Positions 3,069 to 23,512 of a stretch of 64,000 nt of DNA are shown here, one piece after another (the stretch's first letter is position 1; each line of letters begins with the position of its first letter). Source of the stretch: a virus. The stretch is from the IMG/VR virus record IMGVR_UViG_3300030101_003608, positions 32,001-96,000 of that record. One strand, written 5' to 3'. The notes beneath the pieces are model-generated. The model did not search any database. It saw nothing but the letters and a program-made list of their open reading frames with translations, and had not been told where the DNA came from. The position numbers and the translations under genes are program-made.

Positions 3069-5336
3069 TTAATTACCATAAGGTAATGTACTATATCTTG
3101 GTATAAAAGTACTAGAATTCACTGATCCTCCATACCTGCTACTACCACCATCAGGATCTGGAGTAGCATTAGGATCTGGAGTACCATCAGGATCTGGAGT
3201 AGTTGTAGTAGTTGTTGGTGCTTGACCCATAGTTGTAGGATCTACATTTGGATAATACTTTGCAAGACATTTAGCAGGATCATTACCTGCGCCTATACAA
3301 GCTGATAAACTTCTTCTTTGCAAGTTTGTTCCTCCTAAAAAGTTACCTAACCAATCATAGTTCTCTGCAGCATTTTCTAATGATTGTTTCATAACATTCA
3401 TTTTATAAACATCCATTGCTCTTTGATCTCTGTTAGCTCTAATTTGATTAATACCAGCTGTCTCTAAATTTTTTGTATTTGCAACAGCTCTATTATAATC
3501 TGCATCAAGACCTGCTCGCATTTTCTGCTGATTCATTCCAAGTGCTGTTTCATCTTTATAACGTGCAGCACCAAGCATTGCATTTTTATTATACACATCT
3601 GTAACAGTAGATGCTATAGGACCTGTACTAGCCGCATTTACTTTAGCTATCATAGCTTGTTTTTGACCTTCTGTTAACCCTGACATATTTCTAATATCAT
3701 TAATCTGTGCAAGCTGATTACTTTGTTGATTTTGTACAGCTGTTCTATAGTCTAAATAATTTGTTTTTGGTGTAGGCACTATATCCAAACCAACAGGGTC
3801 TGGAGTTGCTAAACGTCTTCTCATAGAAGACATGGGAGGTAAAGCTAAAGGATCACTTTTCTTTTTTTGCTGTATCTCTTCTTCAAACTCTTCTCTACAA
3901 AAAGCTTCTTTAAATCCTGTACACCTTTGTTCTACAGTATAACCTTCAATTCTACCAGAAGCAAGAATTTCTTCAAAAGTCATTTTATTGCTAACAACCC
4001 CATCTTTTTCACATTGACATCCGTTGTTTTCCTCTGTTTCCTCAACCTCAACATAAACATCCTCTATTGTTTCTTCAAATCTTGATTGATCACCTTTACA
4101 TCTTTCCCAAATTTCCTGAGCCTGTGGACTATTAGGATTTAAGTGAGTTTTTCTACTTCCTGTTTTCTCAAATGCTACATCAGGATCTGTAAGTTGTTCC
4201 CAAGTTGCACCATCTTTAATCATATCACAAATTGCACCTTCCCATCCTGATGAAGAAGGTCTTCCAGAACTTCTAGCTTCAGAAGCATTTTTTCTTTCTT
4301 CCCCAGGAGTTATAGTTGTTTCAGACTCAAATCTATCACTATCTGTACGACCTCTAGTTCCTGTACCGGGTAACCTATCAACTTTTTCAGCACGTCTACC
4401 CTCTACTGTTTCACCAGCATCTTGATATTTAGTTAAACCTCCGTTAGCCATAACAAAAGGCATATCATATCCTCCTAGTTCCATACCATAAGCAGCCATA
4501 GGCATAGGCTGTTCCATCTGAGGTGGCATCATTTGCTGTTCTTGCTGCATTGCCATCATCTGTCTAGGATCCATCATAGGTTGCTCTGGAGGAGCCATAC
4601 CTTGTTGTGGCATTGCTACAGGTTGACCATCAGGCATCATAGGAGGCATTCCTTGTGGAGCTTGTGGTTGTTGTTGCATAGCCTGAGCTTGTTGCATTTG
4701 CATAGCCTGCATCTGTTCAGCCTGAGCTTTTAATTCAGGAATTAAATCTTCTTCAGTAATTCCATTAGCTTCCATGTAAGGTTTAGCTATTTCAGGAATG
4801 CCTTGCGGGAATCCTTTCTTAGCTTCTTGAGCTAAAGCAAGAGCACCCAACTTCATGACTATATTCTTAATCATGATTTCTGCAGTGTTTCTAGATAATC
4901 TATCTGTGTCAGGATCCATAAGTATAGCTTTATACTTACTGATATCATAAGGCTTTGCAAGTTCTGCAGGAGTATAACTACCTTTAGTCTTACCAAACAT
5001 TTGTAAGATTTTAGGGTCTTTTATCTTCATTGACTTAGTGTCACTAAAAATAAAACTATCATCTGGAAGATTCATAGGTACACCACCACTAGAATGTCTA
5101 GGGCCTTTTATAGTCATATGATCTACTATACCATCTCCTGATATTTGACCTACTACAGTTTCTCCACCTTCTGCTTCTAAGTTAGCTTCTTCTCGTGGTA
5201 CTCCACCAATAGTTCTTTTAGGTTTTAAAGAGCCTGTTGAATTCTCATCCATACCTCTACCTAAAGATAATCCATAGTCTACTTGTTGCCCATAGGCAGC
5301 TTTTGGTAATCCTAAACTTTTAATTCTAACTTTCAT
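3069..5336 (-). CDS. Putative virion cargo protein, 755 aa (EAEGGE...GPRHSSGGVP N-terminal domain, Q/M/P low-complexity tract)
   Basis: ORF track; position downstream of tail genes; GG motifs (LPKAAYG, MANGG, YQDAG, SRYGG). Confidence 0.6.
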   Translation of the reverse strand: MKVRIKSLGLPKAAYGQQVDYGLSLGRGMDENSTGSLKPKRTIGGVPREEANLEAEGGETVVGQISGDGIVDHMTIKGPRHSSGGVPMNLPDDSFIFSDTKSMKIKDPKILQMFGKTKGSYTPAELAKPYDISKYKAILMDPDTDRLSRNTAEIMIKNIVMKLGALALAQEAKKGFPQGIPEIAKPYMEANGITEEDLIPELKAQAEQMQAMQMQQAQAMQQQPQAPQGMPPMMPDGQPVAMPQQGMAPPEQPMMDPRQMMAMQQEQQMMPPQMEQPMPMAAYGMELGGYDMPFVMANGGLTKYQDAGETVEGRRAEKVDRLPGTGTRGRTDSDRFESETTITPGEERKNASEARSSGRPSSSGWEGAICDMIKDGATWEQLTDPDVAFEKTGSRKTHLNPNSPQAQEIWERCKGDQSRFEETIEDVYVEVEETEENNGCQCEKDGVVSNKMTFEEILASGRIEGYTVEQRCTGFKEAFCREEFEEEIQQKKKSDPLALPPMSSMRRRLATPDPVGLDIVPTPKTNYLDYRTAVQNQQSNQLAQINDIRNMSGLTEGQKQAMIAKVNAASTGPIASTVTDVYNKNAMLGAARYKDETALGMNQQKMRAGLDADYNRAVANTKNLETAGINQIRANRDQRAMDVYKMNVMKQSLENAAENYDWLGNFLGGTNLQRRSLSACIGAGNDPAKCLAKYYPNVDPTTMGQAPTTTTTTPDPDGTPDPNATPDPDGGSSRYGGSVNSSTFIPRYSTLPYGN
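3148..3216 (-). repeat. Tandem 18-bp coding repeat (TPDPDG/TPDPNA x3) after a poly-Thr run
   Basis: ggatctggagta occurs three times at 18-nt spacing. Confidence 0.85.
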
Positions 5337-5340
5337 AGTA

Positions 5341-8300
5341 TTATTCTATAATTTCAATTGAGCCTCCTGCGGCATATATTGCATCTATTTGTTGTGGTGT
5401 TAAATCATATACACCCCCTACTCTGTATTGACCTCCTCTAGCGCCAACATAATTTATTGATGAAGGTCTTGCACTACTAGATTGAATAGGATCATTAAAC
5501 TGTGAGTTAACCATTGATTGATATCCAGTAACAGCATCAAATCCTTGATTTATATCAGTACTTATATTTGATACTTTAGAATCTGAAGTTTGTTTATTAC
5601 GGTCAAATTCTTCTTGTCTACGTGTATCTGCAGCTACACCCCTATCAACAATAAAGTCAGCAAGTCTACTAGCAGTATTAGCTATTAAGGGGTTATTAGT
5701 TTTTCTAGCAGTATTAACTTTAAAATTTTCAGATTTAACTGCGGCATTATAACAGTCACTTCCAACTCGTTGTAACTCAGCTTCTGTACAATCTTCTAAG
5801 TTAAAGTCATCATCTGAAGTATTTTCAACTAGATTCATATTAACTGCATCCTGATCTCCCATGAAATCAGTATCTATTTCTCCAGCCATAAAAAACTTAT
5901 CTAAACCACTGTATATATTTTGACCACCTTCATTAAAGTTATCTTTATTTAAAAATCCTGAATCCTTTCCAGTATAGTAATCTTTAAAACCTTCATACTC
6001 GCTACCATCTATTTTTCCATCATCATCAAATGTATTTTTATTAGGTGTCCATGTAACATTTAATCTGTCTTTTCCTATCTTTTTATCTTTATACTTTAGA
6101 TTCATATTAGCTCCTATGATTCTGTTTCCATCACTATCAAACTGTGCACTTCCATAAGGTTGTGCAATAGTATTAGGTAATCCATCTACTCCTATATATC
6201 CAAAAGCAGCATCTTTATCACCGTCTTTATGAGATAGCCAATCAAATTGTTTTGGTGCATATATATCTCTCACTGTACCAAGAACACCTCTTAAACCTTT
6301 ACCTTGAGTAATAGGTTCAAATGCTGTTTTAAAATGATCTTTAATTTGACCAAAGACTCCTTTAGATGTAGGATAAACTGTTTCTCTATATTTTTGAACC
6401 TCTGCTGAAGGAGACATTGGTCCTAGTACTGGATCCATCTTAGGTTTCTTAAATGCTCCACCTGGTGCAAAGTAAGGATCTGTAATATCTTTATACATAT
6501 CTGGATCATCCATTTCATCTCCACCATATACATACTTATATAAGTCAGGACTTACTGAACCTCCAAAAGCTACACTAGGAAAAGCACTTCTGTTATAGTC
6601 CCTTGGTGAATACTGTTTAGCATTTCCTCCACCAACAAAATCTAAGTCCCATCTTCCATTACCTTTATCTACAATTTTATATTTTTTAGGCTCTTTGATA
6701 TAGTTACGATCAGCTCTTTTAAAATACTCTATAGCAGCTTCTTTAGTCTTAGCATTCTTTGCATGCTTATTATCTAATACTTTTTTGTTTTGTTCAGTAG
6801 CTTGTTTATTTATTTCTTTTGCTCTTTTCTTCTTCTCCTCTATGGTATTCTCTCTCCATCCAGGATAGCTATCAAACCATTTCTTCAGCTTTTCTCCTCC
6901 AGGATCATCCTCATCATAATGTTCATAACCCGAATCTTTAAATATCATTTTATAAATTTCTTCTTTTGAATAACCTTGCTCTAATAGACTATCAATACGT
7001 TCATCCCAATATGCATTTTCATTCCACTTATATGAATCCGCAGGGACATCAGGATCCCCACCTGCTTTTACATAATCATAAACATCAGTAGGATCTTTTT
7101 TCCGCCAAGCCTCTATAGATTTTTCTTTTTTACTTTTTCCAACATTGTCAGGATGCCATTTACTATCACGGTGTTCATCTTGATATTCTTGAGGCATCTC
7201 AGAAAAACTTTTTGTACCATATTCCTTACCTTGCCAAATAAAAGTTGTAGCTCCAGCATCTCTAGCTGTTCTATATGCTTGTGAGAAAGTCATATCATCT
7301 GTAACACCAAAATTATCTGCAGAAACTTCAGTAACTTCATTATCTACAACCTCTTGATTCTGTAAAGCTTCAATTCTTTTTTCTTCATTATAATTTGCTA
7401 TATCTTCTTCTGTAGCATTAGGTCCTAATACCGCTAAAGCTTCAGCATTTGGATCATTTGGATCTATTACATTTTCATCAGCATTGTCCATATCATCTTC
7501 ATCATCAAATATATCTACAGCATCATCATAAGCCTCTATAGCAGGATCTCGTACTACATCAATAAATTCTTCTGAATCTTCTTTTTCATAATTAGTGTTT
7601 TCAACAGGACCAGCTGGATTTTTAGGACGGTCAACCCATTTATTTGCAGTACTATCCCAAATTAAAGTAGGATCTCCCGTTAAATCATTTAATACTTTTT
7701 TAAAATAGTCAAACTCTGACTGTCCATCATTAGGAGGATTATTCTTAAGCTTTAAAGCTCTATCACTATCATCATTGGCTTCATTAATATCTTTTATAAG
7801 AATCTCTGTTGCTGTAACTCCAGGTATTACTCTAGTACCAATATTTCTTGTTGTATTATATCCAGTACCAGCACTACTAGTTCCAAGAGTTCCTCCAAAA
7901 CCTGGTAAAGAAGTATAGTCTAAACCTGATATACCCCACTCTCTTCTACCAAATCCTTTTTTCTTAAAGTAAACATCTACATTAGTATCTTCAAGACCTG
8001 TTCCTTTTCTAGAAAATTCATTAGCTGTATTACGATGACTAAATATTTGAGGCATCATTGAACCTAAATAGTCAGAACCTATAGTAACCATGTCTTTACG
8101 AATCTGGTTATAATCAGGAGGTAATACACTTTTACCTTCATAAATAGAATCATTTAACTCTTGCCAAGTAAAATCACCTCTTTTTAAACCTTTTCTTAAG
8201 GCTTTTCTATCAGATCTTTCATACGGACTTTGTTTACTAGCTCGTCTTGCTATTCCTCTATTTGTTACTCTTCTTGTCCTCCCACCTTTTCTAAACATTT

Positions 8301-8958
8301 CTGACTCATCACTATAATTCATGTCAGCCATTTCTTTAGCATAGAATTCATTACCTTCATCTTTCACACCTTCTATAAATGTATTAAGAGTTGCTGGTTG
8401 TGGTAAAATGCTGCCAGGAGTTTCTGTTTGCATTTCTCTCCCTTCTTTAGCTTCTTTTAAAAGTTTTTTCTTATAACCACCTTTAGACATTTCAGCAGGT
8501 TGTTCTTGCATAGGTTGTTCTTGAGAACCTTCTTGCATCTTAAGAGAAACCATACCTACTAGATCTTTAAATTGAGTCAGCATTTCTTGAGTCATTTGCT
8601 GATCAACCTCTTGACCAGATTGCTGAAGTTTAGCTAAACTTACTTCTACAAATCCTCGTACAATATCATCTTCAGAAACTCCTGAACTAAGTAGTTGCAT
8701 TATAATATTAGGAGGTGTAACATTTTCCTCCATACCTTGCATAATTGCAGCTGTGGCTGAATTTTCTTGGGGTTGACCTGCACCTTGCTGTTGAAGCATT
8801 TGCTCTTGTTGTTGCTGCTGCATCATAGCCATTTCTTCTGGAGATGGTTGTTGCATTCCTTGTTCAGCCTTAAGCATAAACTGCTGCATTTTATTTATTA
8901 CACCAGGTTTTTCACCACCTAATGCTTTTCTGATTCTATATCTTTTTGTTTTTGACAT
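5341..8958 (-). CDS. Putative virion cargo protein, 1205 aa, largely low-complexity, many GG motifs
   Basis: ORF track; poly-Q and acidic tracts; FSQAYRTAR..G...FIWQGKEYGT mini-module; C-terminal DLTPQQIDAIYAAGGSIEIIE. Confidence 0.6.
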   Translation of the reverse strand: MSKTKRYRIRKALGGEKPGVINKMQQFMLKAEQGMQQPSPEEMAMMQQQQQEQMLQQQGAGQPQENSATAAIMQGMEENVTPPNIIMQLLSSGVSEDDIVRGFVEVSLAKLQQSGQEVDQQMTQEMLTQFKDLVGMVSLKMQEGSQEQPMQEQPAEMSKGGYKKKLLKEAKEGREMQTETPGSILPQPATLNTFIEGVKDEGNEFYAKEMADMNYSDESEMFRKGGRTRRVTNRGIARRASKQSPYERSDRKALRKGLKRGDFTWQELNDSIYEGKSVLPPDYNQIRKDMVTIGSDYLGSMMPQIFSHRNTANEFSRKGTGLEDTNVDVYFKKKGFGRREWGISGLDYTSLPGFGGTLGTSSAGTGYNTTRNIGTRVIPGVTATEILIKDINEANDDSDRALKLKNNPPNDGQSEFDYFKKVLNDLTGDPTLIWDSTANKWVDRPKNPAGPVENTNYEKEDSEEFIDVVRDPAIEAYDDAVDIFDDEDDMDNADENVIDPNDPNAEALAVLGPNATEEDIANYNEEKRIEALQNQEVVDNEVTEVSADNFGVTDDMTFSQAYRTARDAGATTFIWQGKEYGTKSFSEMPQEYQDEHRDSKWHPDNVGKSKKEKSIEAWRKKDPTDVYDYVKAGGDPDVPADSYKWNENAYWDERIDSLLEQGYSKEEIYKMIFKDSGYEHYDEDDPGGEKLKKWFDSYPGWRENTIEEKKKRAKEINKQATEQNKKVLDNKHAKNAKTKEAAIEYFKRADRNYIKEPKKYKIVDKGNGRWDLDFVGGGNAKQYSPRDYNRSAFPSVAFGGSVSPDLYKYVYGGDEMDDPDMYKDITDPYFAPGGAFKKPKMDPVLGPMSPSAEVQKYRETVYPTSKGVFGQIKDHFKTAFEPITQGKGLRGVLGTVRDIYAPKQFDWLSHKDGDKDAAFGYIGVDGLPNTIAQPYGSAQFDSDGNRIIGANMNLKYKDKKIGKDRLNVTWTPNKNTFDDDGKIDGSEYEGFKDYYTGKDSGFLNKDNFNEGGQNIYSGLDKFFMAGEIDTDFMGDQDAVNMNLVENTSDDDFNLEDCTEAELQRVGSDCYNAAVKSENFKVNTARKTNNPLIANTASRLADFIVDRGVAADTRRQEEFDRNKQTSDSKVSNISTDINQGFDAVTGYQSMVNSQFNDPIQSSSARPSSINYVGARGGQYRVGGVYDLTPQQIDAIYAAGGSIEIIE

Positions 8959-9018
8959 GTCTAAAAGTACTTATTTATAATATACTAATTTTTAGTTTAA
9001 TGTTTAAACATTTAATGT

Positions 9019-12000
9019 TTAATCTAATTCTTCTAATATATAACCTCCTTCTATATATTTTTTTACATCTTCTGGAGAAAGATCAGCCTCTACAGAACCT
9101 CCTTGCTTATAAGGTACAATTCGTTTTGTACCTTTTAAAACATCGTCAGGAAGTGTAATTTCCCACCAAGTATTTCCATATTCATCAGTTACTTCTCCAA
9201 CTTTTGCATTAGGATACCTTTTTTTCAAGAACTTTTGTAAGGCTTCGTATCTTTCTACTATTTTATATCTAACAGGATCTAATAATTTCCAATAATCATC
9301 TTTACCTATTTTTTCAGGAGTGTCTTTATATTTCTTTAAATAGTTTGTTATTCTTTTACCTTCACTGTTTAGTGTTTTAATTTTATCAACCTCTTCTTCA
9401 GTAAAATATTTAGACTTAAATGTTTTTATCTTTTTAGTGCCTTCACCTGTAGAAACCTCTTCTGTAACATATTGCCATAAAGGTTCATCACTTGTAGCTA
9501 TATCTACTATTTCATCAACAGTCAGTTTATTTGTTAAACCACCTGGCCACTCATTAAATAAGCCTACTAGGTTTATTTTGTCATCTTCTGTTAAATTTTT
9601 ATTAGAAATAACAGCTCCAGCTTTATTAATATCTATATTATTATGAATTAATGCGCCAAAATTTACAACATCATATCCAGATTTTGGGACCTTGCTTATA
9701 TTCTCTAAGGTATAATCTTTACGAGTATTATTGTAGCTTGAATAGTCTTGTATTCTATTAGCAGTGCTACCTGTTGGAAATCTTACTTTTTCATATTTAC
9801 CTGTACTAGCTGCATAAGCTATAGTTTCTTCAACCATTCGCTCAAAATTATACCTTTGAAACAGTCTAGCATCTGGAGCAACCTCCATTTTTTTCCTAGT
9901 CGCTGCAATTTGATTTGCATTAAAAGATTCAGAAGTAGGGTCAATAGTAAAAAGAGACCTACCTAATGCATCTTCTACACGGTTAATAACTGTCTGTAAG
10001 TCTACATCTTGATACTTTGTTTTCATTCCATCAGGCAGTTGATCCTTAAATGAATCTCGTATATAGTCAATATCCTTTTGTAATTCTTCATACTTTGTCT
10101 TAGCTGCAGCTCTTTCATTTCTGAGCCCAAAATATATATCATCAAGCACATCATTATACTGCTCACTATAATCCCACATAAACCCATATCCTTCCTCACC
10201 TTTTGTTCCTTTTACCCAATAATTTCTTCCAGTACTATCTTTTTCCCGGGTCCAACCATCCTTATTAAGTAGTTCCTCCCTATCAGCTAATCCTGCATCC
10301 GACAGTGGTCCTTGTGGTCCCTTATACATTGCACTAATGTCATTATTAGCTTGCTTCATGATTTCTACAAATTCATTTACGGCTAACTCGTCCCTCAGCC
10401 TTGCTGCTGAAGTTTGTTTTCTACCTCTGGGCTGTTGACTAAACTCAGATTGAATCTGATTTGAGAATAATGTCTTAGGAACATTAGCTCTTTCAAAAGT
10501 ATAAACACGTCCTAATGTCTTATCATCTGCACCATGAGCATCTACTCCAAAAGGAAGTTTGTCTTTATTGTTAAAAACTAACTGTCTAGGATTCTTGGTA
10601 TAATTTTTACCGCTTTTTTCAAGGTTTATATCCCAACCTGTCCAATCATTATTTCTAGGTCTACCAATGCTTCTCTGTATTTTTTTTTCATTAATTGTAA
10701 AAAGCTTCTTCTTATCATCTAATTTTGACTTGAGTATATCATATTTATATTCTTCTGCATATAGTTTTTTTCCTGGATCATTATACTTATCTCGTAAACT
10801 CAACCAAACTGGATCACGCTCAAGTATCTCATCTATATTATTTACGTTCACTCCAGGATTAGTCTCAACAATCTTTCTTTCATAATTCTGTACTTCATAT
10901 TGTATTTCATCTATCTCAGAGTTAAGGTCTTTGATTCTTGATTCTGATTGACCTATTTGATATTCTAAATCTTCAATCTCAGAATTTATCTGGTTAAGAT
11001 CTTCAATATCATAGTTCATCATACCTGGATCATACTCATTATTAGCAACAAAATCACTCATGCCTGTTTTATATCCACCATAGAGAGGGTTTCCAGTTGT
11101 ATGTTGCACTTCTATATTAAGTGGTATAATTGTAGAATTTGCTACATCATTTAATTCATCAAAACTAATTTCTGCAGGTATAGTACCATCATAACGATTT
11201 TCTAATTCCTTTTTTATTCTAGATACTTTTAGTGAAGAAGCAGACTCATCCTTTTCCATTATTTTAAATGCTTTTTCTGTAGATACATTTCCCTCACTAT
11301 TTTTTAAGTCTGCAATTTTTCCATTTTCTTCAAGTGTCTTAAATGATCTTTTTGCTTTAGGTTTAAAGGTTTTTGTAAAATCATCATAAATATATCCATC
11401 TTTTTCCCAGGTTTTCATAAATTGACCCGCATCCTTTGGTGCAACAACACCCGTGTGATAATCAGTATTAAATACTATGGATCCATCAGGATTATTTGTA
11501 GCATGATGCATTGGACTTGCTTCTGTTTTTTGTGCCGGAACTGAAGGTGTCGGCTCTATAATTTTAGCACTAGGTATAACAGGAGAAGTTATGTTAGGAA
11601 CAGATAAAGATTTTGTATTTGATAATAAAGGACCTGGGGCATTAACAACAGTAGACGTACTTTTCATTTGTTGTTGCAAAGGTTTAGTTGCAATAGCCCA
11701 CTGACCTGAACCCGTTGTTCCTTGAACTAAAGGTTTATAATTTGTTAAATTATACTCACTAGCTCCTAATCCAATGTCAATATTCCCTTTATAGTTTTTA
11801 TAACGGAATGTAAATGGAAGATTACTTTTATTTAAAAACTTCATAGAAGAAGTTCCTTTACCTAAACCATGTATATATCTACCTGCCTTAAAAGTGTTAC
11901 TATATAAACCAGTACCTATTGGTAATGTACCCACAAAAAGTCCATCATAAAAACCTTGACCAAGTTCTATATCATCTAAAGTCTTACCTGTAAATGCTAC

Positions 12001-13830
12001 CTCTGTAAGATCTTTAACTCCTTTTCCAAATTCTTTTGCAGTTTTTCCAGGTTCCTCAAATGCTCTAATAATACTTGCTCCACCAATTTCAGGAATCACT
12101 CTAAGTTGAGTTTGCAAAGTTTGACGTTTTTCTTCAGTACCTAAATCAGATAAAAGTTTCCAATAGCCTGGAAACTCTTCTTTAGTTGTAGCAGGATCAA
12201 ACCTTGCCCAGTTATTTTCTTTATAATCATCTGCAAAGTATCTAGTAGCCATAGACTTATCTGAATATCTTCCTTTCTTATTTTTAAGATCTTTTCTTGC
12301 TTGTAGATATTGTTTATACTGTAAGTCCTCATATTCTTTATCCTTATATTCCTTTATGAGACTTTGATATTTATCTATATACTTTTTCCAGTCTTCATCA
12401 TTATAACCCATGGGTAAGTCACCATAACCTCTTAATCCAGCTATAACATGATTCATCATTTCAGCTTGCTCTCTTCTAGCTTTCCATTTTTTAAAAAGAC
12501 CTTTTTTATTCTTTCCTCCTGCAATATCTGAAGTTGGTAGATCCATGAAATATCTCATGTCAGGAGCCTGTTTACCAGATAAGATTGCTTCTTGTTCCTC
12601 ATTTACATTAGGTGTATCAGGATCATCAAAAATATAATTTGGATTTAGAATTTTTTTATAACCGGATGTTGCTAAATTATACTTACCTTCTGGAATGTCT
12701 CTAAAAACATAATCTTTATATACATCATCCATGGTAGCTTTGATAAACTTTTTAAATCTTCGTCTATCTGCCCATGTTTCTTTATCTGGACTTTTAGTTT
12801 GTACTATTTTAGCTGATGTAGGTTGTTGATTTGCAGCTTGAAGGGACTTATAAAATTCTTCTAATCTTTGCTCCATAGTTACTGGTGTACCATCAGGGTT
12901 CCATTCATAGTAGCTACCGGACTCAGCCCAATCATCTAAAAACTTATTAAAAGCTTTTCTTTTATCTCTAGGAACTTGAACACCTGATTGAGCTTGTGGT
13001 AATGCACCTCCTTTATATTTTTTAGGTAATGCTTCTTCTTGTTTTTTTGCAAAATACCTGTTAATCCAATCTACTGTAAACTGATTTCTTCGACCCAAAG
13101 GTTTGCCACCTGAAGTTCTAACATGTTCCTTAAGCATTAAGTCTACATCATTGTTTACTACACCTTTTGCAAAGTTTGGAAATTCTTCTATGCCTCCAGC
13201 TACATTATATTGATAATCAGTTAATATTATTTGTTGAGGAACAGAAAGGTTTTCAAAAGTACCTTTTCCATATGTTTTGTTTATATAGTTAGATGCATAT
13301 TTCTTTTTCTCCTCGAAAATTTTTCTCATCATGGTATTCATTTCTTCAGTAGTTATACCTTTATACCAATCACGTTTCTTGGATAAACCTGACAATTTTA
13401 TTCCAGGTCCTATATCATATCCTCCACCTTCTTCTGGAGCTGGATAAGGTTTCCATAATTCAGTTATAGGGTCCCACCCAACTTTAGCCGCATTTTCTTG
13501 GGAGCGCAGTTGATTAAAATAATCATTATATATTTCTTTTTCTTTAGCAACCTTAGCAGCTTTTATCATTTTACCGAATAAACCAGTTCCTGCTTTTTTT
13601 GCAACCTTTGTTGCAGGTTTTGCTACAGCTTTTTTCTTAGGAATATTTATTACTTGACCTATAGAAAGATTGCCATAACTAATTCCTGGATTTGCAGCTC
13701 TTAACTCAGAAGGATTAAAACCATTATCATATGCTATATCGTCAAAAGTATCTCCAGATTTTACACTATAACTTGTACCTCCTCCATCTTGAAAACGTCT
13801 GGGTAATCCAACTATTTGATACTTCTTCAT
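9019..13830 (-). CDS. Virion-associated peptidoglycan hydrolase/cargo protein, 1603 aa (N-terminal LysM + lysozyme-like domain)
   Basis: LysM: YSVKSGDTFDDIA...LRAANPGI...LSIGQVINIP (~13640-13776); lysozyme-like: LRSQEN...YDIGPG...DYQYNV...FPNF...GRRN (~13085-13510). Confidence 0.75.
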   Translation of the reverse strand: MKKYQIVGLPRRFQDGGGTSYSVKSGDTFDDIAYDNGFNPSELRAANPGISYGNLSIGQVINIPKKKAVAKPATKVAKKAGTGLFGKMIKAAKVAKEKEIYNDYFNQLRSQENAAKVGWDPITELWKPYPAPEEGGGYDIGPGIKLSGLSKKRDWYKGITTEEMNTMMRKIFEEKKKYASNYINKTYGKGTFENLSVPQQIILTDYQYNVAGGIEEFPNFAKGVVNNDVDLMLKEHVRTSGGKPLGRRNQFTVDWINRYFAKKQEEALPKKYKGGALPQAQSGVQVPRDKRKAFNKFLDDWAESGSYYEWNPDGTPVTMEQRLEEFYKSLQAANQQPTSAKIVQTKSPDKETWADRRRFKKFIKATMDDVYKDYVFRDIPEGKYNLATSGYKKILNPNYIFDDPDTPNVNEEQEAILSGKQAPDMRYFMDLPTSDIAGGKNKKGLFKKWKARREQAEMMNHVIAGLRGYGDLPMGYNDEDWKKYIDKYQSLIKEYKDKEYEDLQYKQYLQARKDLKNKKGRYSDKSMATRYFADDYKENNWARFDPATTKEEFPGYWKLLSDLGTEEKRQTLQTQLRVIPEIGGASIIRAFEEPGKTAKEFGKGVKDLTEVAFTGKTLDDIELGQGFYDGLFVGTLPIGTGLYSNTFKAGRYIHGLGKGTSSMKFLNKSNLPFTFRYKNYKGNIDIGLGASEYNLTNYKPLVQGTTGSGQWAIATKPLQQQMKSTSTVVNAPGPLLSNTKSLSVPNITSPVIPSAKIIEPTPSVPAQKTEASPMHHATNNPDGSIVFNTDYHTGVVAPKDAGQFMKTWEKDGYIYDDFTKTFKPKAKRSFKTLEENGKIADLKNSEGNVSTEKAFKIMEKDESASSLKVSRIKKELENRYDGTIPAEISFDELNDVANSTIIPLNIEVQHTTGNPLYGGYKTGMSDFVANNEYDPGMMNYDIEDLNQINSEIEDLEYQIGQSESRIKDLNSEIDEIQYEVQNYERKIVETNPGVNVNNIDEILERDPVWLSLRDKYNDPGKKLYAEEYKYDILKSKLDDKKKLFTINEKKIQRSIGRPRNNDWTGWDINLEKSGKNYTKNPRQLVFNNKDKLPFGVDAHGADDKTLGRVYTFERANVPKTLFSNQIQSEFSQQPRGRKQTSAARLRDELAVNEFVEIMKQANNDISAMYKGPQGPLSDAGLADREELLNKDGWTREKDSTGRNYWVKGTKGEEGYGFMWDYSEQYNDVLDDIYFGLRNERAAAKTKYEELQKDIDYIRDSFKDQLPDGMKTKYQDVDLQTVINRVEDALGRSLFTIDPTSESFNANQIAATRKKMEVAPDARLFQRYNFERMVEETIAYAASTGKYEKVRFPTGSTANRIQDYSSYNNTRKDYTLENISKVPKSGYDVVNFGALIHNNIDINKAGAVISNKNLTEDDKINLVGLFNEWPGGLTNKLTVDEIVDIATSDEPLWQYVTEEVSTGEGTKKIKTFKSKYFTEEEVDKIKTLNSEGKRITNYLKKYKDTPEKIGKDDYWKLLDPVRYKIVERYEALQKFLKKRYPNAKVGEVTDEYGNTWWEITLPDDVLKGTKRIVPYKQGGSVEADLSPEDVKKYIEGGYILEELD

Positions 13831-13831
13831 G

Positions 13832-16800
13832 TTAAATCTCTTTTAATGTATAACCTAATTTTTCTAATTGTTCCTTAGCAGCTTTATCTATATTTACTAT
13901 ATCTCCTAACTCATGATTTACAGAACCGCCTTCCTCTCTTTTTCTTCTTTTTCCTTTGCTTTGTAATCTTCTATTTAAAGTTTTACTCTTATTTTTTTTC
14001 TTTTTTCTTTTTAATCTTCTTAACCTTCTTTTTTCTTGCCTTAGTTCTTTAGGTGTAGACATATCTAAATCATCATCTTCATATTCTATCTCAGATAACT
14101 TTAAGTTAGATTGCGGAATAGGAATAGGTTCAATGTTAAGACTTAAGTCTAAATCATTTAATTGACGCACTGACTCTTTTAATTCATTAGCCGAGTTATT
14201 AAAAGTCTCTTTAGCTTTATAACTAGGTAAATCTTCAGGTTTAGGATTTCTTTTATATTTATCATAATATTTAGCAGCATATATAAAATCTTGTAATGTA
14301 GGATACATGTCTTTATCTACATTTTTGTACGCTTCTTTATATGTTGGTTTTATTTCTTTCTCTATTCTTGTTAAAGTTTTAGTAACAAATTTAGGAGGTG
14401 TGGGTTTTTTATAAAGAGGTCCTAAACTGTAGTCTCCATCATATATATGACTCCAGTATCCTATTGGCTTAACTTTTGCTCCCCATAAACCTGTTCCCTT
14501 TAAACGGTTCCCCATGTTTATAAAATTAAGATATGCATCTATATCTTCTTTTGGAGTATTACCTGGAAAAGCATAATCATATATAAATCCTTTCTTACCT
14601 ATATAATCAGGTGGATCTTCAAGATTAAAAGGGACTTTATTAGAATAAGTTTCATCCATGCTTTTCATTCTCGCCTTAAACATACCCTCATCCATATTTC
14701 CAAGACCAAAGGGAAATCCAGTACTAGCATAAATACTAAGACCATGATTATATGCATCTAAACTATCTTGATAAGCTTGCATTGCTTTTCCATCTTGAGC
14801 TTTAGGAAGTTCTATAGTATTATGAGGACGCTCACCTTTCTTATATCTTACTTTCTTTGTTGAAGCATTTTCAATAAGTTTTCCATTTTTACGTCTAATA
14901 TTTTTATATGATTTAATACTTCCATCTTTATATCTACGTGTAACTTCTCTTTCAGTAAATTTAACTCTAGGTGTATCTTCTGTTTTATAAGTAATATCTT
15001 TAGTTAAGGTTTTACTTACTCCTCTATTTGGTCTATATACATCAACTACTTTTCTTTCTCCAAACTCTGTAGATCCTGAATCTTCTTCATAAACTCTTCT
15101 ATAACCTTTTTTCTTACGTTCACCTTCTTCCATCTCTTCTAGTATATATCCACCTTTTGCGTATTCTGCAGCTTCATCTTTTGTAAGTTCTATATCTAGA
15201 AACATTCCTTCTTTTGCCATTTGCATATCATCCCCTTCTACTTGTGGAGCTTCATTTTTAGATATATTATTTAACATCCACATTATCTCTTCATCACTGT
15301 ATGATTTTTTAAGTTGATCCATAGGATCAAGCCGTTCTCCGTCATAAGGATTTTTTAATCTTTTTAGTTTTTTATAAGCTTTCTTATCTACTTTTTGTGT
15401 AAAAGGATCATATATGCCTGCCTTTTGAGCTACTTGTCTAATCTCCATTAATCTTGCTCTAGTCTCAGTGGGTCTTTCAACATAATTCATTGTCCTTTCC
15501 TTACGTTTTACATAATCAGGATACTTTTTTTTATACCATTGCCATTGTTTTCTAGGAGTATCTACACCTTCAGGAAACCATCCTTCATCTTCAAACTGTT
15601 TTCTTCTTTTATACCAAGCAGGACTTCTATAATATTTCTTAGCCGCAGCTTTATCCATATAAGCTATATCAGAATCAGGAATTAACCTACCAGAATTTTC
15701 TAAAGATATATCTGTAGAATGACTAATCTCATGTATATTGGAATGACCATAATGTTCTAAGTTTTCAGGATTATGACCAACTTGTCCAGAATGTTCAATC
15801 CAAGCAATTGGCTGGTCGGGATCAGGAATTTCTTCATGAGTATCTTGATCATGTATCATTTTCTGTCTATACTTAGGAGCTGGCATATTTGATAAATTAA
15901 ACATTCTTTGTTCAGCTATAGATTGAGCACCCCGCTGAGGAGATACTCTTGGTTTACCATCAGCAACATCTTTTTCAAAATCAGCTTCCATTGATTGCAT
16001 AAGCATTTGCTTATACATAGGAGAATTCATATAATCTCTAAACCATTGTACATCTTTAGGAAAACTTTCATTAGCTTCTTTAATAGCTTTATTGATTTTT
16101 TCTGTTCTTGGATATTTTTCAAAATATTCTTCCTCACTAATGCAGTTTTTAGTTTGATGATCATATATCATACCTTCGTTACATGGTGATGACACTCCTT
16201 TTTTTGTAGCTTCTTTAAAAATACGTTTTCTTCTTTTCTCATCTTCTCTCTTATTATAATCTTCTACATCAAAATATATTTTATTATATTTTGAATGTGG
16301 ATACCAACCTGTCCACTCTCCAAGTCCTCTAAGTATATCCTTACGGTTTTCATCAGCCCAATTTGTTAAACTCTCATTAGCTCCATCCAGCAAATTCTTA
16401 TCAGGCTTAGGCTCTTCAGGTTTTGGAATAGATTGCATATCTATTACACCTGGTATACCAAATTGAGCTTTAGGAAGTTCTCCACCTTCATTTAGCTCTT
16501 CTAAAATATAACCTCCTTTTGCATATTCATCAGCTTCCTTTTCAGTGAGTTCCACGTCTATAAATTCTAAAGATCCTCCAAGATTTCTTTTAGGTAATGT
16601 CTTTATATTACCATTATGAGTTCTAGCATATCTAGCCTTATCAGTTTCCATACTAGGTATTAAAGTTCCTGAATATGTTTTACCCTTAAAGTTCCAAGAT
16701 ACATTCCCACCATTATCATACATTGGTATTTCATAAACAGAATTTCCCGGAAATTGATAATCATAACCAGGCATCATCATTTGTTGATTACCTTCATCAT

Positions 16801-16918
16801 CAATACCTAATACAGGATAGTTTACTCCTTTCATAGTTATGCTTCCCCCTACATTTGGAATTAATGTATTCTCTCCAGGAAACTCCCACTGTCCGTATTT
16901 ACTTTTCTTAAATTTCAT
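13832..16918 (-). CDS. Modular cargo protein, 1028 aa, with a zincin-like (HExxH) metallopeptidase domain
   Basis: HEISH at 15719-15733 with downstream Y..RPTETRAR glutamate motif; internal GGYILEE repeats. Confidence 0.65.
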   Translation of the reverse strand: MKFKKSKYGQWEFPGENTLIPNVGGSITMKGVNYPVLGIDDEGNQQMMMPGYDYQFPGNSVYEIPMYDNGGNVSWNFKGKTYSGTLIPSMETDKARYARTHNGNIKTLPKRNLGGSLEFIDVELTEKEADEYAKGGYILEELNEGGELPKAQFGIPGVIDMQSIPKPEEPKPDKNLLDGANESLTNWADENRKDILRGLGEWTGWYPHSKYNKIYFDVEDYNKREDEKRRKRIFKEATKKGVSSPCNEGMIYDHQTKNCISEEEYFEKYPRTEKINKAIKEANESFPKDVQWFRDYMNSPMYKQMLMQSMEADFEKDVADGKPRVSPQRGAQSIAEQRMFNLSNMPAPKYRQKMIHDQDTHEEIPDPDQPIAWIEHSGQVGHNPENLEHYGHSNIHEISHSTDISLENSGRLIPDSDIAYMDKAAAKKYYRSPAWYKRRKQFEDEGWFPEGVDTPRKQWQWYKKKYPDYVKRKERTMNYVERPTETRARLMEIRQVAQKAGIYDPFTQKVDKKAYKKLKRLKNPYDGERLDPMDQLKKSYSDEEIMWMLNNISKNEAPQVEGDDMQMAKEGMFLDIELTKDEAAEYAKGGYILEEMEEGERKKKGYRRVYEEDSGSTEFGERKVVDVYRPNRGVSKTLTKDITYKTEDTPRVKFTEREVTRRYKDGSIKSYKNIRRKNGKLIENASTKKVRYKKGERPHNTIELPKAQDGKAMQAYQDSLDAYNHGLSIYASTGFPFGLGNMDEGMFKARMKSMDETYSNKVPFNLEDPPDYIGKKGFIYDYAFPGNTPKEDIDAYLNFINMGNRLKGTGLWGAKVKPIGYWSHIYDGDYSLGPLYKKPTPPKFVTKTLTRIEKEIKPTYKEAYKNVDKDMYPTLQDFIYAAKYYDKYKRNPKPEDLPSYKAKETFNNSANELKESVRQLNDLDLSLNIEPIPIPQSNLKLSEIEYEDDDLDMSTPKELRQEKRRLRRLKRKKKKNKSKTLNRRLQSKGKRRKREEGGSVNHELGDIVNIDKAAKEQLEKLGYTLKEI

Positions 16919-19900
16919 TATCTCTGACTTAATTGGGATTTAGTATTTACAATCTTTAGGATCATGTTTGTATTTCGTGAATCATCTCTAATTAACTTAA
17001 CAAAGTTTAAGTAATGTCTAAACTTCTTTCTTTGTAGTAATGGTTTACTATAGTTAAGATTAAAGTCATTTAGATTTTTTACATAACCATTAGGTTCAGT
17101 AATCCATATATTATTTTGAGGATAACTTCCTAAAAGTTCAGTTGTACCTGGAATTAATGGTCCTGTAGGAGGATAATCAGATCCTTGAGGAAACTCTCCT
17201 CTATCTTTAGTAATATCCCAGAACTGATTAAATCTATATTTGTTTTCTTCTTTTGAAAATAATATATCAAATGAAGCAAGGTTAGATCCTAGTTTAGGAT
17301 ATGTTTGAGATAAAGCTACATTATTCTTTGGGAATATATTTAAGTTAAGAATTCCTGAAGCCTGTTCTGAGTTACTAATTATAGCTTTATTAAAATTATA
17401 ATCTAATACATGGAACTGATCGCTACATAGTTGAATATCTTTTCTATAACATTCAAGAACATATTCAATACTTCTCATAGTGGTAACTGTTTGTCCCGTT
17501 GGTACAGGTATCTCTATTTCAAAAGGATATTGCACACCGTAAAAATTACAGTAATCATTACAAGCACTATTATGTTTCCATATACCATCTTTTTTAGTAG
17601 TAAGGAAATGTCCTTTACTTGGTATGTATAAACCAGGGTTCCAATCATGGAATGAAATCCATAATTTATTTTTAGGATCATAACTTACTGTCCAAGACGC
17701 ATCTTTAAAAAATCTAGAATCTCCTAATGTTATAGTATAATTAACTTGATCTTTTAATTTAAATCTATTTGTACTTGGGTCAAAATCAAGAATTCCTACA
17801 AATTCTTTTTTAACCATGAAGTCTCTTTTAGAAAAGTACAAAACAGAATTTGAGTTATCATAAGTTGCAGAACAGCCTATACCCGCTACAGGATTATTTG
17901 TATGAGGATAATTTGGAAACTCTTCTAAAAGCTTAAATGGTAAAAATTTATCAAACCACCACTTCATTCCAGTTTGAGATATCTCTTCTAGTTTTCCTGT
18001 ATAAGCAAAGATTTTACCTTGCTCTTGTGATATAAAGTATATACCTGCTGGAGTAGATATTACAGAATATATATCTTGGCAAGAACCATATTGATAAGGT
18101 TGATCTGATACTACTACATTTTGAGGCGTAGTAGCAAATAATCCACCATCACCTATAGTAGCTTTAACTCCTAAATAAGTTTCTCTTTGATCTACACCTT
18201 GGAATACCAGAGGACTGTTATTTTTAAATGTAACTAACAAACCTGTTTTACCAAATGTCTTAACGGTATTTAATTCACTTTTAAAATCTACTTTATTCAA
18301 AGCCAAGAACATTAACCATGAATCATAAGCTTCATGCTCTTGTAAAGGTTTTGAATATTGAATTCTATTTGGAAAACTTGTATAACACAGTTCAGCTGTT
18401 TCTGGATCATAATTAGTTCCTTGTAAAGCTCCATTATTGTAGTACTGACTAAATAAGAATCTTGACGCACTTAAAGAATAATCATATCTAAAAAAATTAC
18501 CTTTGGTAAATATAGCAGGGTTCTGACTAAACAATTGTTGCAGATCTGTAAACAACCATTTGTTATAAGACTTTTCTTCAGCACTTCTACCTGCAAATCT
18601 CCAGTCTGTAATTACTTCACTTTCTACAAAGAAGTCTTTTATACCACTTACTGATGTATAGAAATATGAATTCTTTACACCTATTAAACCAGGATATCTA
18701 GTAACAAAATTAAATGCTTCATCATAACCAAAAGGTGGAGGAGCGTCTAAGTTGTAATAAGATCTTGGAAATAATCCTTCACCTACACCAGAAGAACCCG
18801 CTTGAAATATATTTAGTAAGTTATCAAAATTTAGATCACTTATATCCCATCTATTGCTGTTAACCATAAATCTAGGTTCAGGAATCATTTGTCTTCTAAA
18901 ATAATTAAACCTAGTATTATCTGGTTTATCATAAAGCCATTCATAGAAGAAAGGCATCATAGTTTTTTCAGTATGTCTTGTGACATAAGTATCTCCTCCA
19001 AAAAATGCAGGAGTGGTTTTTATTTTAGTATGTTCAAAACTTAAACTACCACAAACATTAGGAAGAGAGGATATTTGTATAGTATTAGGATCTGGCAAGT
19101 TTTCTCTAAAATCTATTCTTTGTTCATGAGGAGTTGTCATAACTTGAATGATAGATCCTAGTTGTCTATATAAATTTCTAAATGTATATTTTAAACCTAC
19201 ATAATGACTTGCAATTATTGTTTCAAACTCATTTGATTTATTGTTTTCTCTAAAAGCTTCTCCATCTAAAAATAAATCTTTCCAACCTAAACCTATATCT
19301 TTTTGAACTAAACCTAAAGTCATAGAGGATTGGTCAACACTTTTAATAAACTGAAAGTTTATACCAGCAACACCGGTAGTAAGAAAGTTTGGACCATCTG
19401 GATTTTCATCATCATCTGTAGTTCTAAGTACAACTAATTCAGGTCTTAATAAATTATTTATTCTATAATTTACCTCACCATTATATGTTGAATAAGGAAA
19501 ACTATAATTATAATTTTGAGCTTGATATGTAGGAAACTGAAATACCTGATCTTTTACATATGATCCCACAGGTAATCTAAATCTATTTACATTATCCCAG
19601 TTTTCATTACTGTTTGAAGGGCGAAATTTAGTATACTCACCATGACCAATTCCTTGAAGAGCATACTGCCTAGTTCTAACTATTGAATATAATACATCTA
19701 CAGTATCTTTAGCTCCTTCTGCAAAATAATATACAGACTGACCTAACATAGTGAACCCAGGAATAAGGTTACCTATAGCATTTGCGTTTGTAAAAATTGC
19801 AGGTAATAACTGGTATGCTGTGTAAGTTTTATCATATCCTGGTAATGTTAGTTGACCTGTTGCGCCACTAATTGCATTTGATGCTGCCGTTTGTGCAGTT

Positions 19901-22485: not shown

Positions 22486-23512
22486 TGCTGTGAATATTAT
22501 GTCTTACACGTCTATTAATTAAATTTGGAGAATGAGAACTAAACATGTTGTAATACCTAGCATACATTGCTTTTCTATTAGCATTTGTTATTTCTTTTAA
22601 CTCTCTAAAGTTAGGTGTATTAACTACGCTTAATGCATTATTTCTAGCGCCTCTCAATCTTTGTTCAACAAGTTGCATTCTTTGAGCAACATCTTCACCA
22701 TTCATATAAAGATTTTCAAGAATTCTAGATTTAAATGCATATTCATAATATTCATTTATTAGATCATGATCAGGTACTAGCAAGTTACCTTCTTCATCTT
22801 CCATCTGACCTTGGTAGTTTAAATATACTTTACCTGTTTTAAAGTTTGTAAAAAGAAATCCATGTTTAATCCAACCTTCATTTTCAGTATTATGATATAA
22901 GTTGGGACACTCACAATCAATATTCTGACTAGCCTTCATTTTCAAAGGAAGCAGTTGTTTATATAGTAAAGTTTCTGAAGCATTAATTACTTGAATTAAT
23001 TCATAAGATTCTCCCTTACAGTTCATAAAAACTCTAGGTTTTACATTAGCATCTCCATAAGGTTTATTAGGATTATTAACCAAACACGTGCCTTCATTAC
23101 CTTTATCATCGCAACAAGGTGTTGGTTCATTTGTATCACAAGGATCAGGAACATCTTTTGGAAAGTCATCATATGTTACAGGAAGAGTGCCTGTTGTAAT
23201 TGGTACTTCTATCATAGTAGTTCCCCCAGCTATACCATCATAACCAATTTTTCTTTCATAGTCTCCGCAAATTAATGCATAGTTGAATGTATAAAAGTCA
23301 TCAGGTAGTTTTACTTTACCATGACAAACATCAAGTATAACCTCTTTTTGTTGATTAATTCTAAGCCCTAAATCATAATTAAGTTTTTTAGCAAGCTTAA
23401 TTAGCTGCTGCGGCTCAATCATATTTTCTAAAGCTAATGAACTTAAATCTACAGTTACATCTTCTAAAAGTTGATCAAAGGTTCTATATTTTAAAGTATA
23501 GTTATAATCCAT
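22478..23512 (-). CDS. Tail tubular/ring protein (P22 gp4-like), 344 aa
   Basis: KVKLPDDFY...GKVYLNYQG...DEEGNLLVPD pattern; synteny with the muzzle gene. Confidence 0.6.
   Translation of the reverse strand: MDYNYTLKYRTFDQLLEDVTVDLSSLALENMIEPQQLIKLAKKLNYDLGLRINQQKEVILDVCHGKVKLPDDFYTFNYALICGDYERKIGYDGIAGGTTMIEVPITTGTLPVTYDDFPKDVPDPCDTNEPTPCCDDKGNEGTCLVNNPNKPYGDANVKPRVFMNCKGESYELIQVINASETLLYKQLLPLKMKASQNIDCECPNLYHNTENEGWIKHGFLFTNFKTGKVYLNYQGQMEDEEGNLLVPDHDLINEYYEYAFKSRILENLYMNGEDVAQRMQLVEQRLRGARNNALSVVNTPNFRELKEITNANRKAMYARYYNMFSSHSPNLINRRVRHNIHSNG

What the first reader, a model, noticed from the sequence alone, without database searches (positions are those of the whole stretch)
5341..16565. 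A ~22-aa module (D-[LI]-[ST]-x6-Y-x-x-GG-Y-x-[LI]-E-E) ends three adjacent cargo proteins and recurs inside one
Seen: five copies. DLTPQQIDAIYAAGGSIEIIE* (1205 aa C-terminus, ~5341-5410). DLSPEDVKKYIEGGYILEELD* (1603 aa C-terminus, ~9019-9085). NIDKAAKEQLEKLGYTLKEI* (1028 aa C-terminus, ~13832-13895; most divergent). Internally DIELTKDEAAEYAKGGYILEEM (~15130-15196) and DVELTEKEADEYAKGGYILEEL (~16493-16558). Each follows a GG-type motif. Inference: this is a portable C-terminal docking or packaging tag, and the 1028-aa gene is a concatenation of three tagged units.
Basis: partly seen in the sequence, partly recalled or inferred. Interest (0 to 1): 0.8.

Follow-up and report, generated by a model that had tools for sequence, protein, structure and literature searches.

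The report
End-cap peptide on crAss-like cargo proteins
Three neighbouring giant proteins that this uncultured crAss-like phage probably carries in its particle end in the same short acidic helix-plus-strand peptide. The peptide is conserved and apparently undescribed, and it closes the modules of such proteins in hundreds of related phages, but what it binds is not shown.

Summary
The window is a crAss-like phage with Pfam-recognised muzzle, ring 1, ring 2 and capsid proteins. The three tagged genes directly follow the muzzle gene, where phage crAss001 encodes its virion cargo proteins.

The peptide is widespread. A whole-library search with the internal form gave 770 cluster representatives at E <= 0.001. 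The best 150 carry 2-4 copies each, and 111 of them end with a copy. In a separate search with the C-terminal form, 119 of the best 120 proteins carry it at the C-terminus. Terminal copies stop 0 or 1 residue after the last hydrophobic residue. Tagged proteins have unrelated bodies (at least 24 BLAST groups).

New here:
- Internal copies are followed by the L-P-K-A-Q-x-G seam.
- The gene after a terminally tagged gene nearly always opens with a basic leader ending in L-P.

A gene boundary therefore looks like a split internal seam. My best reading is a docking handle that couples successive cargo units. This is inferred, not shown.

The scan had already noted the neighbouring Gly-Gly/LPKAQ junction peptides in other crAss-like genomes, but not this tag. 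I found no Pfam, PHROG or NCBIfam model and no paper that covers it.

The parts
16918..22485 (-). Muzzle protein gene (1855 aa). It marks the start of the cargo block.
   Evidence: Pfam crAss_MUZ E 2e-29. Homologs lie just upstream of the tagged genes in about 75 of 80 loci and in 42 of 46 loci.
13832..16918 (-). Cargo gene 1 (P0003, 1028 aa). Order of parts: module A, module B, tag, seam, zincin-like region, tag, a further 400 aa, terminal tag.
16709..16918 (-). Module A, the conserved all-beta N-terminal domain of the first cargo protein.
   Evidence: 120 of 122 homologs share it. AF2 pLDDT is about 90. No PDB fold match.
16490..16579 (-). Internal tag copy 1 (P0003 aa 114-143), canonical form E-L-T-x-x-E-A-x-E-Y-x-x-G-G-Y-I-L-E-E-L.
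   Evidence: E 1.3e-11 with a profile free of window sequences. AF2 gives a helix at 126-133 after a disordered linker at 113-121.
16451..16489 (-). Seam peptide after copy 1 (G-G-E-L-P-K-A-Q-F-G).
   Evidence: Internal copies in relatives show the same continuation.
15713..15733 (-). H-E-x-x-H motif of the zincin-like region between the two internal copies.
   Evidence: The region is conserved in P0004 and several loci, but no Pfam model hits it.
15128..15217 (-). Internal tag copy 2 (P0003 aa 568-597).
   Evidence: E 6.5e-10 with a profile free of window sequences.
13835..13918 (-). Terminal tag of P0003, third sub-variant (E-L-G-D ... L-G-Y-T-L-K-E-I, then stop).
   Evidence: 18 C-terminal relatives by BLAST. 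Independent profile E 1.8e-10. Not reached by the main tail profile.
9019..13830 (-). Cargo gene 2 (P0002, 1603 aa): basic leader, LysM domain, long body, terminal tag.
   Evidence: (LysM E 4.5e-9)
13771..13830 (-). Basic N-terminal leader of P0002 (K-K-Y-Q-I-V-G-L-P).
   Evidence: leader statistics
9022..9108 (-). Terminal tag of P0002 (G-G-S-V-E-A-D-L-S ... G-G-Y-I-L-E-E-L-D, then stop).
   Evidence: E 9.5e-8 with a profile free of window sequences. AF2 of the 42-aa tail gives a helix at 25-33 with pLDDT about 87.
5341..8958 (-). Cargo gene 3 (P0001, 1205 aa): basic leader, low-complexity body with no detectable relatives, terminal tag.
8899..8958 (-). Basic N-terminal leader of P0001 (R-Y-R-I-R-K-A-L-G-G).
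   Evidence: A homologous head follows a tagged gene in L060.
5344..5424 (-). Terminal tag of P0001, of the A-A-G-G/A-A-G-A-D type.
   Evidence: E 2.2e-7 with a profile free of window sequences.
3069..5336 (-). Conserved 755-aa protein. It starts with a basic leader plus L-P-K-A and carries no tag. It closes the tagged series.
   Evidence: A homolog follows the tagged gene in 44 of 49 loci. N-termini shown.
5277..5336 (-). Basic leader of the 755-aa protein (K-V-R-I-K-S-L-G-L-P-K-A).
22478..24177 (-). Tail ring proteins 1 and 2, giving the context as a crassvirus tail.
   Evidence: Pfam CrAss_Ring_1 E 1.3e-11 and CrAss_Ring_2 E 1.2e-22.

Best explanation
The module is a self-contained, non-enzymatic peptide of about 25-28 residues. 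It consists of a Gly-Gly linker, a short acidic strand, a 9-12 residue helix that starts with a Ser/Thr cap, a Gly turn and a final strand of alternating hydrophobic and acidic residues. It forms the upstream half of the seam between successive units of the modular cargo (polyvalent-type) proteins that crAss-like phages encode after the muzzle gene.

Inside a protein, the module is followed directly by the L-P-K-A-Q-x-G junction. Where the chain is split into separate genes, the upstream protein ends 0-1 residue after the module. The downstream protein then starts with a basic strand (K-hydrophobic-K-hydrophobic-x-K) that leads into L-P.

I propose that the module is a docking handle. Its acidic end strand would pair with the basic leader of the next cargo protein, and perhaps with a repeated site in the particle. 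Separately encoded cargo proteins would then be held in the same order as the fused versions.

Shown: the anatomy, the conservation, the positional rule, the gene context and the link between tag and leader. Inferred: any binding, and the identity of the partner.
For: - Context. The genes lie in the cargo position of a crassvirus, defined by the muzzle, ring and capsid models and by synteny in about 120 loci.
- Position. Terminal copies end 0 residues (36 cases) or 1 residue (62 cases) after the last hydrophobic residue. 119 of 120 and 111 of 150 top hits are C-terminal.
- Seams. Internal copies are followed by P-K-A-Q-x-G or S-V-P-x-L-T-x-A-Q-K-G-G.
- Leaders. The gene after a tagged gene has the basic leader in 40 of 44 cases, against 10 of 318 other genes. 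At one fixed gene position the figures are 24 of 30 against 10 of 53, p 8e-8, not corrected for phylogeny.
- This window. All three tag-to-leader boundaries are present. The series stops at the 755-aa protein, which has no tag, and the next gene has no leader.
- Charge. The tags carry a net charge of -4 to -5, and the leaders are rich in Lys and Arg.
- Fold. AF2 places the module after a disordered linker, with a confident helix, not packed on modules A or B.
- Selection acts on the protein.
Against: - No binding was tested.
- Internal copies are at least as conserved as terminal ones. In the fused state a coupling role seems unnecessary, so the module must do something more.
- About ten leader-bearing genes follow an upstream gene without a detected tag.
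- The tag-leader statistics are not corrected for shared ancestry, and both features are typical of the cargo block in any case.
- crAss001 cargo proteins gp45-gp50 have neither the tag nor module A, so its solved structure gives no direct support.
Confidence: 0.35

Rival explanations
1. This is the first reader's idea: a packaging or address tag. Each copy would bind a repeated receptor in the procapsid or tail (portal, capsid interior, ring or muzzle). That would load or anchor the cargo, like encapsulin cargo-loading peptides or the portal-bound domain of crAss001 gp45.
For: - Location at the extreme C-terminus after a flexible Gly-rich linker.
- The tag sits on unrelated bodies.
- It is restricted to the genes after the muzzle gene.
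- crAss001 gp45 is anchored to the portal by an internal domain, and an unassigned 14-residue helix sits on the muzzle (PMC10172136).
Against: - No receptor was identified.
- No other protein of this genome carries a similar peptide, so scaffold mimicry is not supported.
- crAss001 lacks the tag.
- This reading does not explain why the next gene starts with a matching basic leader.
Confidence: 0.25
2. This reading treats the module as a passive structural cap. It would be a stable mini-fold that closes each unit and tolerates gene fission and fusion at the flexible seam beside it. It could also help ordered unfolding and refolding during ejection. It would have no specific partner.
For: - The module is autonomous and bounded by linkers.
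- Units of median 378 aa are each closed by a copy.
- Modules are shuffled among homologs.
Against: - Sequence is strongly conserved over very divergent phages, including surface acidic residues.
- The 0-1 residue rule at termini and the matching leader on the next gene are more than a passive cap would need.
Confidence: 0.18
3. This reading treats the module as a processing site. A protease, possibly the embedded zincin, would cut the cargo polyproteins after each module. The products would then end like the naturally terminal copies.
For: - Internal copies match natural C-termini, and the seam follows at once.
- P0003 carries an H-E-x-x-H region bracketed by two copies.
- Autoproteolysis by embedded zincins was proposed for polyvalent proteins (PMC5512222).
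Against: - Most proteins with internal copies show no match to this zincin region.
- The residues after the module are not a single conserved cleavage motif.
- Cleavage would not explain the basic leader that split genes add.
- No proteomic data exist for this clade.
Confidence: 0.12
4. This reading treats the module as a short linear motif that acts after injection, by binding a host hub protein or the cell envelope.
For: Acidic C-terminal peptides that end in hydrophobic residues are used as hub-binding tails elsewhere, for example the SSB tail (from general knowledge). Several carriers hold cell-wall enzymes (Pfam columns).
Against: - The motif varies by phage clade rather than tracking a conserved host target.
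- Its link to gene order and to the next gene's leader points to a role within the virus.
Confidence: 0.05

Closest known systems
Cargo proteins C1 (gp45) and C2 (gp46) of Bacteroides phage crAss001 (Bayfield et al. 2023, PMC10172136)
   Same: - The genes directly follow the muzzle gene.
- The proteins are large and partly disordered, and are expected to be stored in tail and capsid and ejected before the DNA.
- Short helical segments of gp45 are docked on the ring proteins and the portal.
   Different: - There is no detectable sequence similarity.
- gp45-gp50 have no tag, no module A and no basic leader.
- The docking elements of gp45 are internal, not C-terminal.
Polyvalent proteins of phages and conjugative elements (Iyer, Burroughs, Anand, de Souza, Aravind 2017, PMC5512222)
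   Same: - They are strings of unrelated enzymatic and binding modules in one polypeptide, encoded next to virion genes.
- Zincin-like peptidases are embedded in them.
- Homologs of P0003 carry ART-PolyVal, SLT, LysM, YkuD and other domains.
   Different: In the passages I read, that paper does not describe a conserved peptide that closes each module or the protein end. The term 'linker' does not occur in it.
Gly-Gly / L-P-K-A-Q-x-G junction peptides of crAss-like cargo proteins
   Same: They occur in the same proteins and the same clade. The junction sits directly after internal copies of this module and directly after the basic leaders.
   Different: The module is a separate, longer element that lies upstream of the junction. 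It is the part that remains at protein C-termini.
Encapsulin cargo-loading peptides and the phage T4 capsid-targeting sequence
   Same: These are short portable peptides on unrelated cargo proteins. They are joined by flexible linkers and direct the proteins into an HK97-fold shell.
   Different: - The consensus is different.
- The T4 signal is N-terminal and is cleaved off.
- Neither occurs as internal repeats.
- Binding is unproven here.

Membership tests
Crassvirus virion cargo proteins (by position) | Encoded directly downstream of the muzzle gene in a crassvirus tail and head block | tested here: met
   Pfam crAss_MUZ, CrAss_Ring_1, CrAss_Ring_2 and Crass_capsid hit the flanking genes. 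Synteny holds in about 120 loci.
Crassvirus virion cargo proteins (by position) | Sequence homology to crAss001 gp45 or gp46 | tested here: not met
   phmmer finds no similarity in either direction.
Crassvirus virion cargo proteins (by position) | Detected in purified virions | not testable with these tools
   None of the 50,697 GenBank phage records in the collection matches modules A/B.
Polyvalent proteins (Iyer et al. 2017) | Two or more unrelated effector or enzymatic domains in one polypeptide next to virion genes | tested here: inconclusive
   P0002 has a LysM domain plus a long unassigned body. P0003 has an H-E-x-x-H region. Homologs carry ART-PolyVal, SLT, YkuD, glucosaminidase and SET domains. 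Few domains in the window's own proteins reach Pfam thresholds.
Polyvalent proteins (Iyer et al. 2017) | Embedded zincin-like metallopeptidase recognised by a family model | tested here: not met
   No Pfam, PHROG or NCBIfam hit on P0003. Only the motif and homologs of the region were found.
Encapsulin-type C-terminal cargo-loading peptide | Short conserved peptide at the extreme C-terminus after a flexible linker, on unrelated cargo | tested here: met
Encapsulin-type C-terminal cargo-loading peptide | Binds the inner face of the shell protein | not testable with these tools
T4-type capsid-targeting sequence | N-terminal peptide removed by the prohead protease | tested here: not met
   The module is C-terminal or internal. 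No protease model hit among the ten tail-ring and head-block proteins (22478-45579) scanned.
Ankyrin repeat | Match to the repeat models in tandem copies | tested here: not met
   One ankyrin protein was the only non-terminal hit of the tail profile, through the shared stretch L-I-A-A-G-A-D-I. No Pfam family matches the tag fragments, even at E 10.

The most novel reading that the evidence does not exclude
Separately encoded cargo proteins of these phages are joined head to tail inside the particle. The acidic C-terminal tag of one protein pairs by strand addition with the basic N-terminal leader of the next. This forms a non-covalent 'cargo train' equivalent to the fused polyproteins of related phages. 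The train would fix the order in which proteins leave through the tail.
Probability: 0.22. Interest if true: 0.8.

Novelty: new variant of a known kind. Interest (0 to 1): 0.6.

Why it matters
How crassviruses load megadaltons of protein into capsid and tail, and how they release it in order, is an open question raised by the crAss001 structure. A short, portable and very conserved peptide closes every cargo unit, and the next protein carries a matching leader. Together they give a concrete, testable handle on that question. They also give a simple marker for finding cargo genes in uncultured crAss-like genomes. If binding is confirmed, the peptide could become a tag for loading foreign proteins into such particles in laboratory phage-host pairs.

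Tried and rejected
- Chance or low complexity. Rejected by independent profiles and by the absence of further genome hits.
- A DNA-level signal such as a promoter or RBS for the next gene. Rejected, because conserved columns use many synonymous codons and internal copies lie far from gene starts.
- Recent duplication of the two internal copies. Rejected: they share only 55 of 78 nt.
- The tag docking in cis on modules A or B. Not supported by AF2, which puts it behind a disordered linker with lower confidence.
- Known families. Pfam, PHROGs and NCBIfam gave nothing for the tag or for P0003. Foldseek against the PDB gave nothing for either model.
- Double-glycine bacteriocin leaders (recalled from memory). 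The spacing differs by one residue, the location is wrong, and I saw no C39 peptidase, so I rejected this without a formal test.
- Scaffold-tail mimicry, a lead from earlier notes. No other protein of this genome carries a similar peptide.
- Cultured relatives. No DNA match was found, and tblastn with modules A/B and with the tag (internal and tail forms) gave only chance-level matches (E 7-9) in 50,697 phage records.
- The search for related loci with P0002 alone found nothing.
Full report
**What the window is.** The window lies in a 110.5-kb virus record that is 97% complete. Pfam recognises a crassvirus muzzle protein (16918-22485), tail ring proteins 1 and 2 (22478-24177) and the crassvirus major capsid protein. 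All of these are on the minus strand.

After the muzzle gene comes a run of giant genes:
- P0003 (1028 aa)
- P0002 (1603 aa)
- P0001 (1205 aa)
- a 755-aa protein
- five more proteins of 1174-2635 aa outside or at the edge of the window

[quoted passage not shown] By position, the three genes of the finding are cargo genes. By sequence they are unrelated to gp45-gp50.

**The observation.** A profile of the five finds no sixth copy in the six frames of the whole genome.

To avoid circularity I built profiles from other phages only.
- An internal-copy profile scores the two internal copies at E 1.3e-11 and 6.5e-10, and the P0002 end at 9.5e-8.
- A tail profile scores the P0001 end at 2.2e-7.
- The P0003 end is not reached by the tail profile when it is left out. 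It scores 2.8 bits, and 720 of 2000 shuffles score as high.

BLAST with the last 32 residues of P0003 finds 18 relatives (E 1.6e-7 to 0.03), and all of them lie at protein C-termini. A profile of 14 of these, with no window sequence, hits only the P0003 end in this genome, at E 1.8e-10. So there are three flavours of one theme:
- the canonical form, found internally and at the P0002 end
- the A-A-G-[AG]-[DE]-I-E type (P0001)
- the E-L-G-D ... L-G-Y-T type (P0003 end)

Right-aligned, the tails align without gaps. Conserved columns use up to four synonymous codons. The two internal copies differ at 23 of 78 nt, including 8 synonymous codon changes. The constraint is therefore on the peptide.

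**Distribution.** The homologs of P0003 mostly share only its N-terminal modules, and these sit at varying positions in large proteins. Those proteins carry SLT, LysM, ART-PolyVal, YkuD, glucosaminidase and other domains, on contigs of about 100 kb.

I fetched 80 viral loci through module A, so the choice did not depend on the tag. They show one gene order: ring protein, muzzle, a first cargo protein that starts with module A, a protein with the terminal tag, then a homolog of the 755-aa protein. The gene before that homolog is tagged in 44 of 49 loci. Among 623 ORFs of at least 150 aa, 56 are tagged. All 56 are on the muzzle strand, and their bodies fall into at least 24 BLAST groups.

Three wider searches agree.
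- A search of 5.8 billion proteins with the tail alignment gave 772 hits at E <= 10 among a capped candidate set. In 119 of the best 120 the tag is 0-1 residue from the end. The exception is an ankyrin protein that shares L-I-A-A-G-A-D-I.
- A filter-free search of 1.84 billion cluster representatives with the internal alignment gave 770 proteins at E <= 0.001 and 278 at E <= 1e-10. The best 150 have 2-4 copies each, and 111 of them end with a copy.
- Of 46 viral loci fetched by the motif alone, 42 have a muzzle homolog just upstream, and the other four are cut by contig ends.

The module has no Pfam, PHROG or NCBIfam model. No GenBank phage carries it or module A. No paper in the library holds the motif strings.

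**Anatomy.** In the terminal copies of the 150 best library hits, the protein stops 0 residues (36 cases) or 1 residue (62 cases) after the last hydrophobic residue. The stretch closed by each copy has a median length of 378 aa.

AF2 of the 42-residue P0002 tail, with 46 aligned tails, gives a helix at residues 25-33 flanked by extended segments, at pLDDT about 87. AF2 of P0003 residues 1-150 gives:
- a confident all-beta module A and a beta-rich module B
- a disordered linker at 113-121
- the module with a helix at 126-133, at moderate confidence and not packed on A or B

Neither model has a PDB fold match. The four tags whose charge I computed (both internal copies and the ends of P0001 and P0002) have a net charge of -4 to -5.

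**The new point: seams and gene boundaries match.** Internal copies are followed at once by P-K-A-Q-x-G or by S-V-P-x-L-T-x-A-Q-K-G-G. These are the Gly-Gly junction peptides that this scan has already noted in other crAss-like genomes.

The gene that follows a terminally tagged gene opens with Met, a basic strand (K-hydrophobic-K-hydrophobic-x-K) and L-P, often continuing K-A-Q-x-G. This leader is present in 40 of 44 genes after a tagged gene, against 10 of 318 other genes. That control is confounded, because it includes non-cargo genes, so I repeated the test at one fixed position: the first cargo gene and the gene after it. There the counts are 24 of 30 against 10 of 53, with an odds ratio of 17 and p 8e-8, not corrected for phylogeny.

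In the window, P0002, P0001 and the 755-aa protein all start with such a leader. The 755-aa protein has no tag, and the next gene has no leader. First cargo proteins without the tag end in other conserved peptides. The next gene then begins with a different conserved head.

A gene boundary of the form 'tag, stop, Met, basic strand, L-P-K-A-Q' therefore looks like an internal seam 'tag, (L)P-K-A-Q' that has been split.

**Mechanism.** Nothing here measures binding. The reading I favour (0.35) is a docking handle that couples successive cargo units. Its acidic end strand would pair with the basic leader of the next protein.

Weak points of that reading:
- Internal copies stay strongly conserved although the link there is covalent.
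- Some leaders follow genes without a detected tag.
- Shared ancestry inflates the statistics.

The rivals:
- A passive cap (0.18) explains the modularity, but not the conservation of surface residues.
- A processing site (0.12) fits the match between internal copies and natural ends, and the H-E-x-x-H region bracketed by two copies in P0003. However, most carriers of internal copies lack that region, and cleavage would not call for a leader.
- A motif that targets a host protein (0.05) is least consistent with the tie to gene order.

**Limits.**
- The best-hit lists favour multi-copy proteins and the most populous sub-variant.
- Counts over relatives are not independent events.

Noticed in passing
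window 16709-16918 (-), and the first 70 aa of the first cargo gene in L002-L081: Module A is a highly conserved, all-beta N-terminal domain, with AF2 pLDDT about 90 and core I-T-M-x-G-V-x-x-P-V-L-G ... P-G-x-x-Y-x-F-P-G. It opens the gene right after the muzzle gene in every locus fetched. It has no Pfam or PHROG model and no PDB fold match.
   Followed up: partly
L040-L076 and L015-L029, C-termini of the first cargo gene and N-termini of the next gene: First cargo proteins without the tag end in one of two other conserved peptides: Y-D-K-L-N-R ... P-N-Y-I-M-T, or G-G-x-T-x-W-L-N-K-Y-K followed by the stop. Each type is followed by a gene with its own conserved head (M-x-x-N-L-N-K-K-S ... G-G, or M-K-D-K-F-L-x-M-A-G-V). 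These are further tail-head pairs at cargo gene boundaries.
   Followed up: partly
window 3069-5336 (-) and homologs in 49 loci: The 755-aa protein family that closes the tagged series has a conserved N-terminal region. After the leader comes V-P-R-E-E-A-N-L-E-A-E-G-G-E-T. It has no family assignment, apart from a weak GA-module hit below the cut-off.
   Followed up: no
window 13828-13834 and 5336-5343: Two of the three tag-to-leader boundaries are very tight, with 1 nt and 4 nt between stop and start. This suggests translational coupling. The third gap is 60 nt.
   Followed up: no
P0239 (805 aa): An ankyrin-repeat protein was the only non-terminal hit of the tail profile. The A-A-G-A-D-I-E type of tag resembles the second helix and turn of the ankyrin consensus.
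   Followed up: partly
genome C1:20086-24984 (outside the window): A run of 10 N (read as X-X-X-X) interrupts the 1632-aa giant gene near its C-terminus.
   Followed up: no
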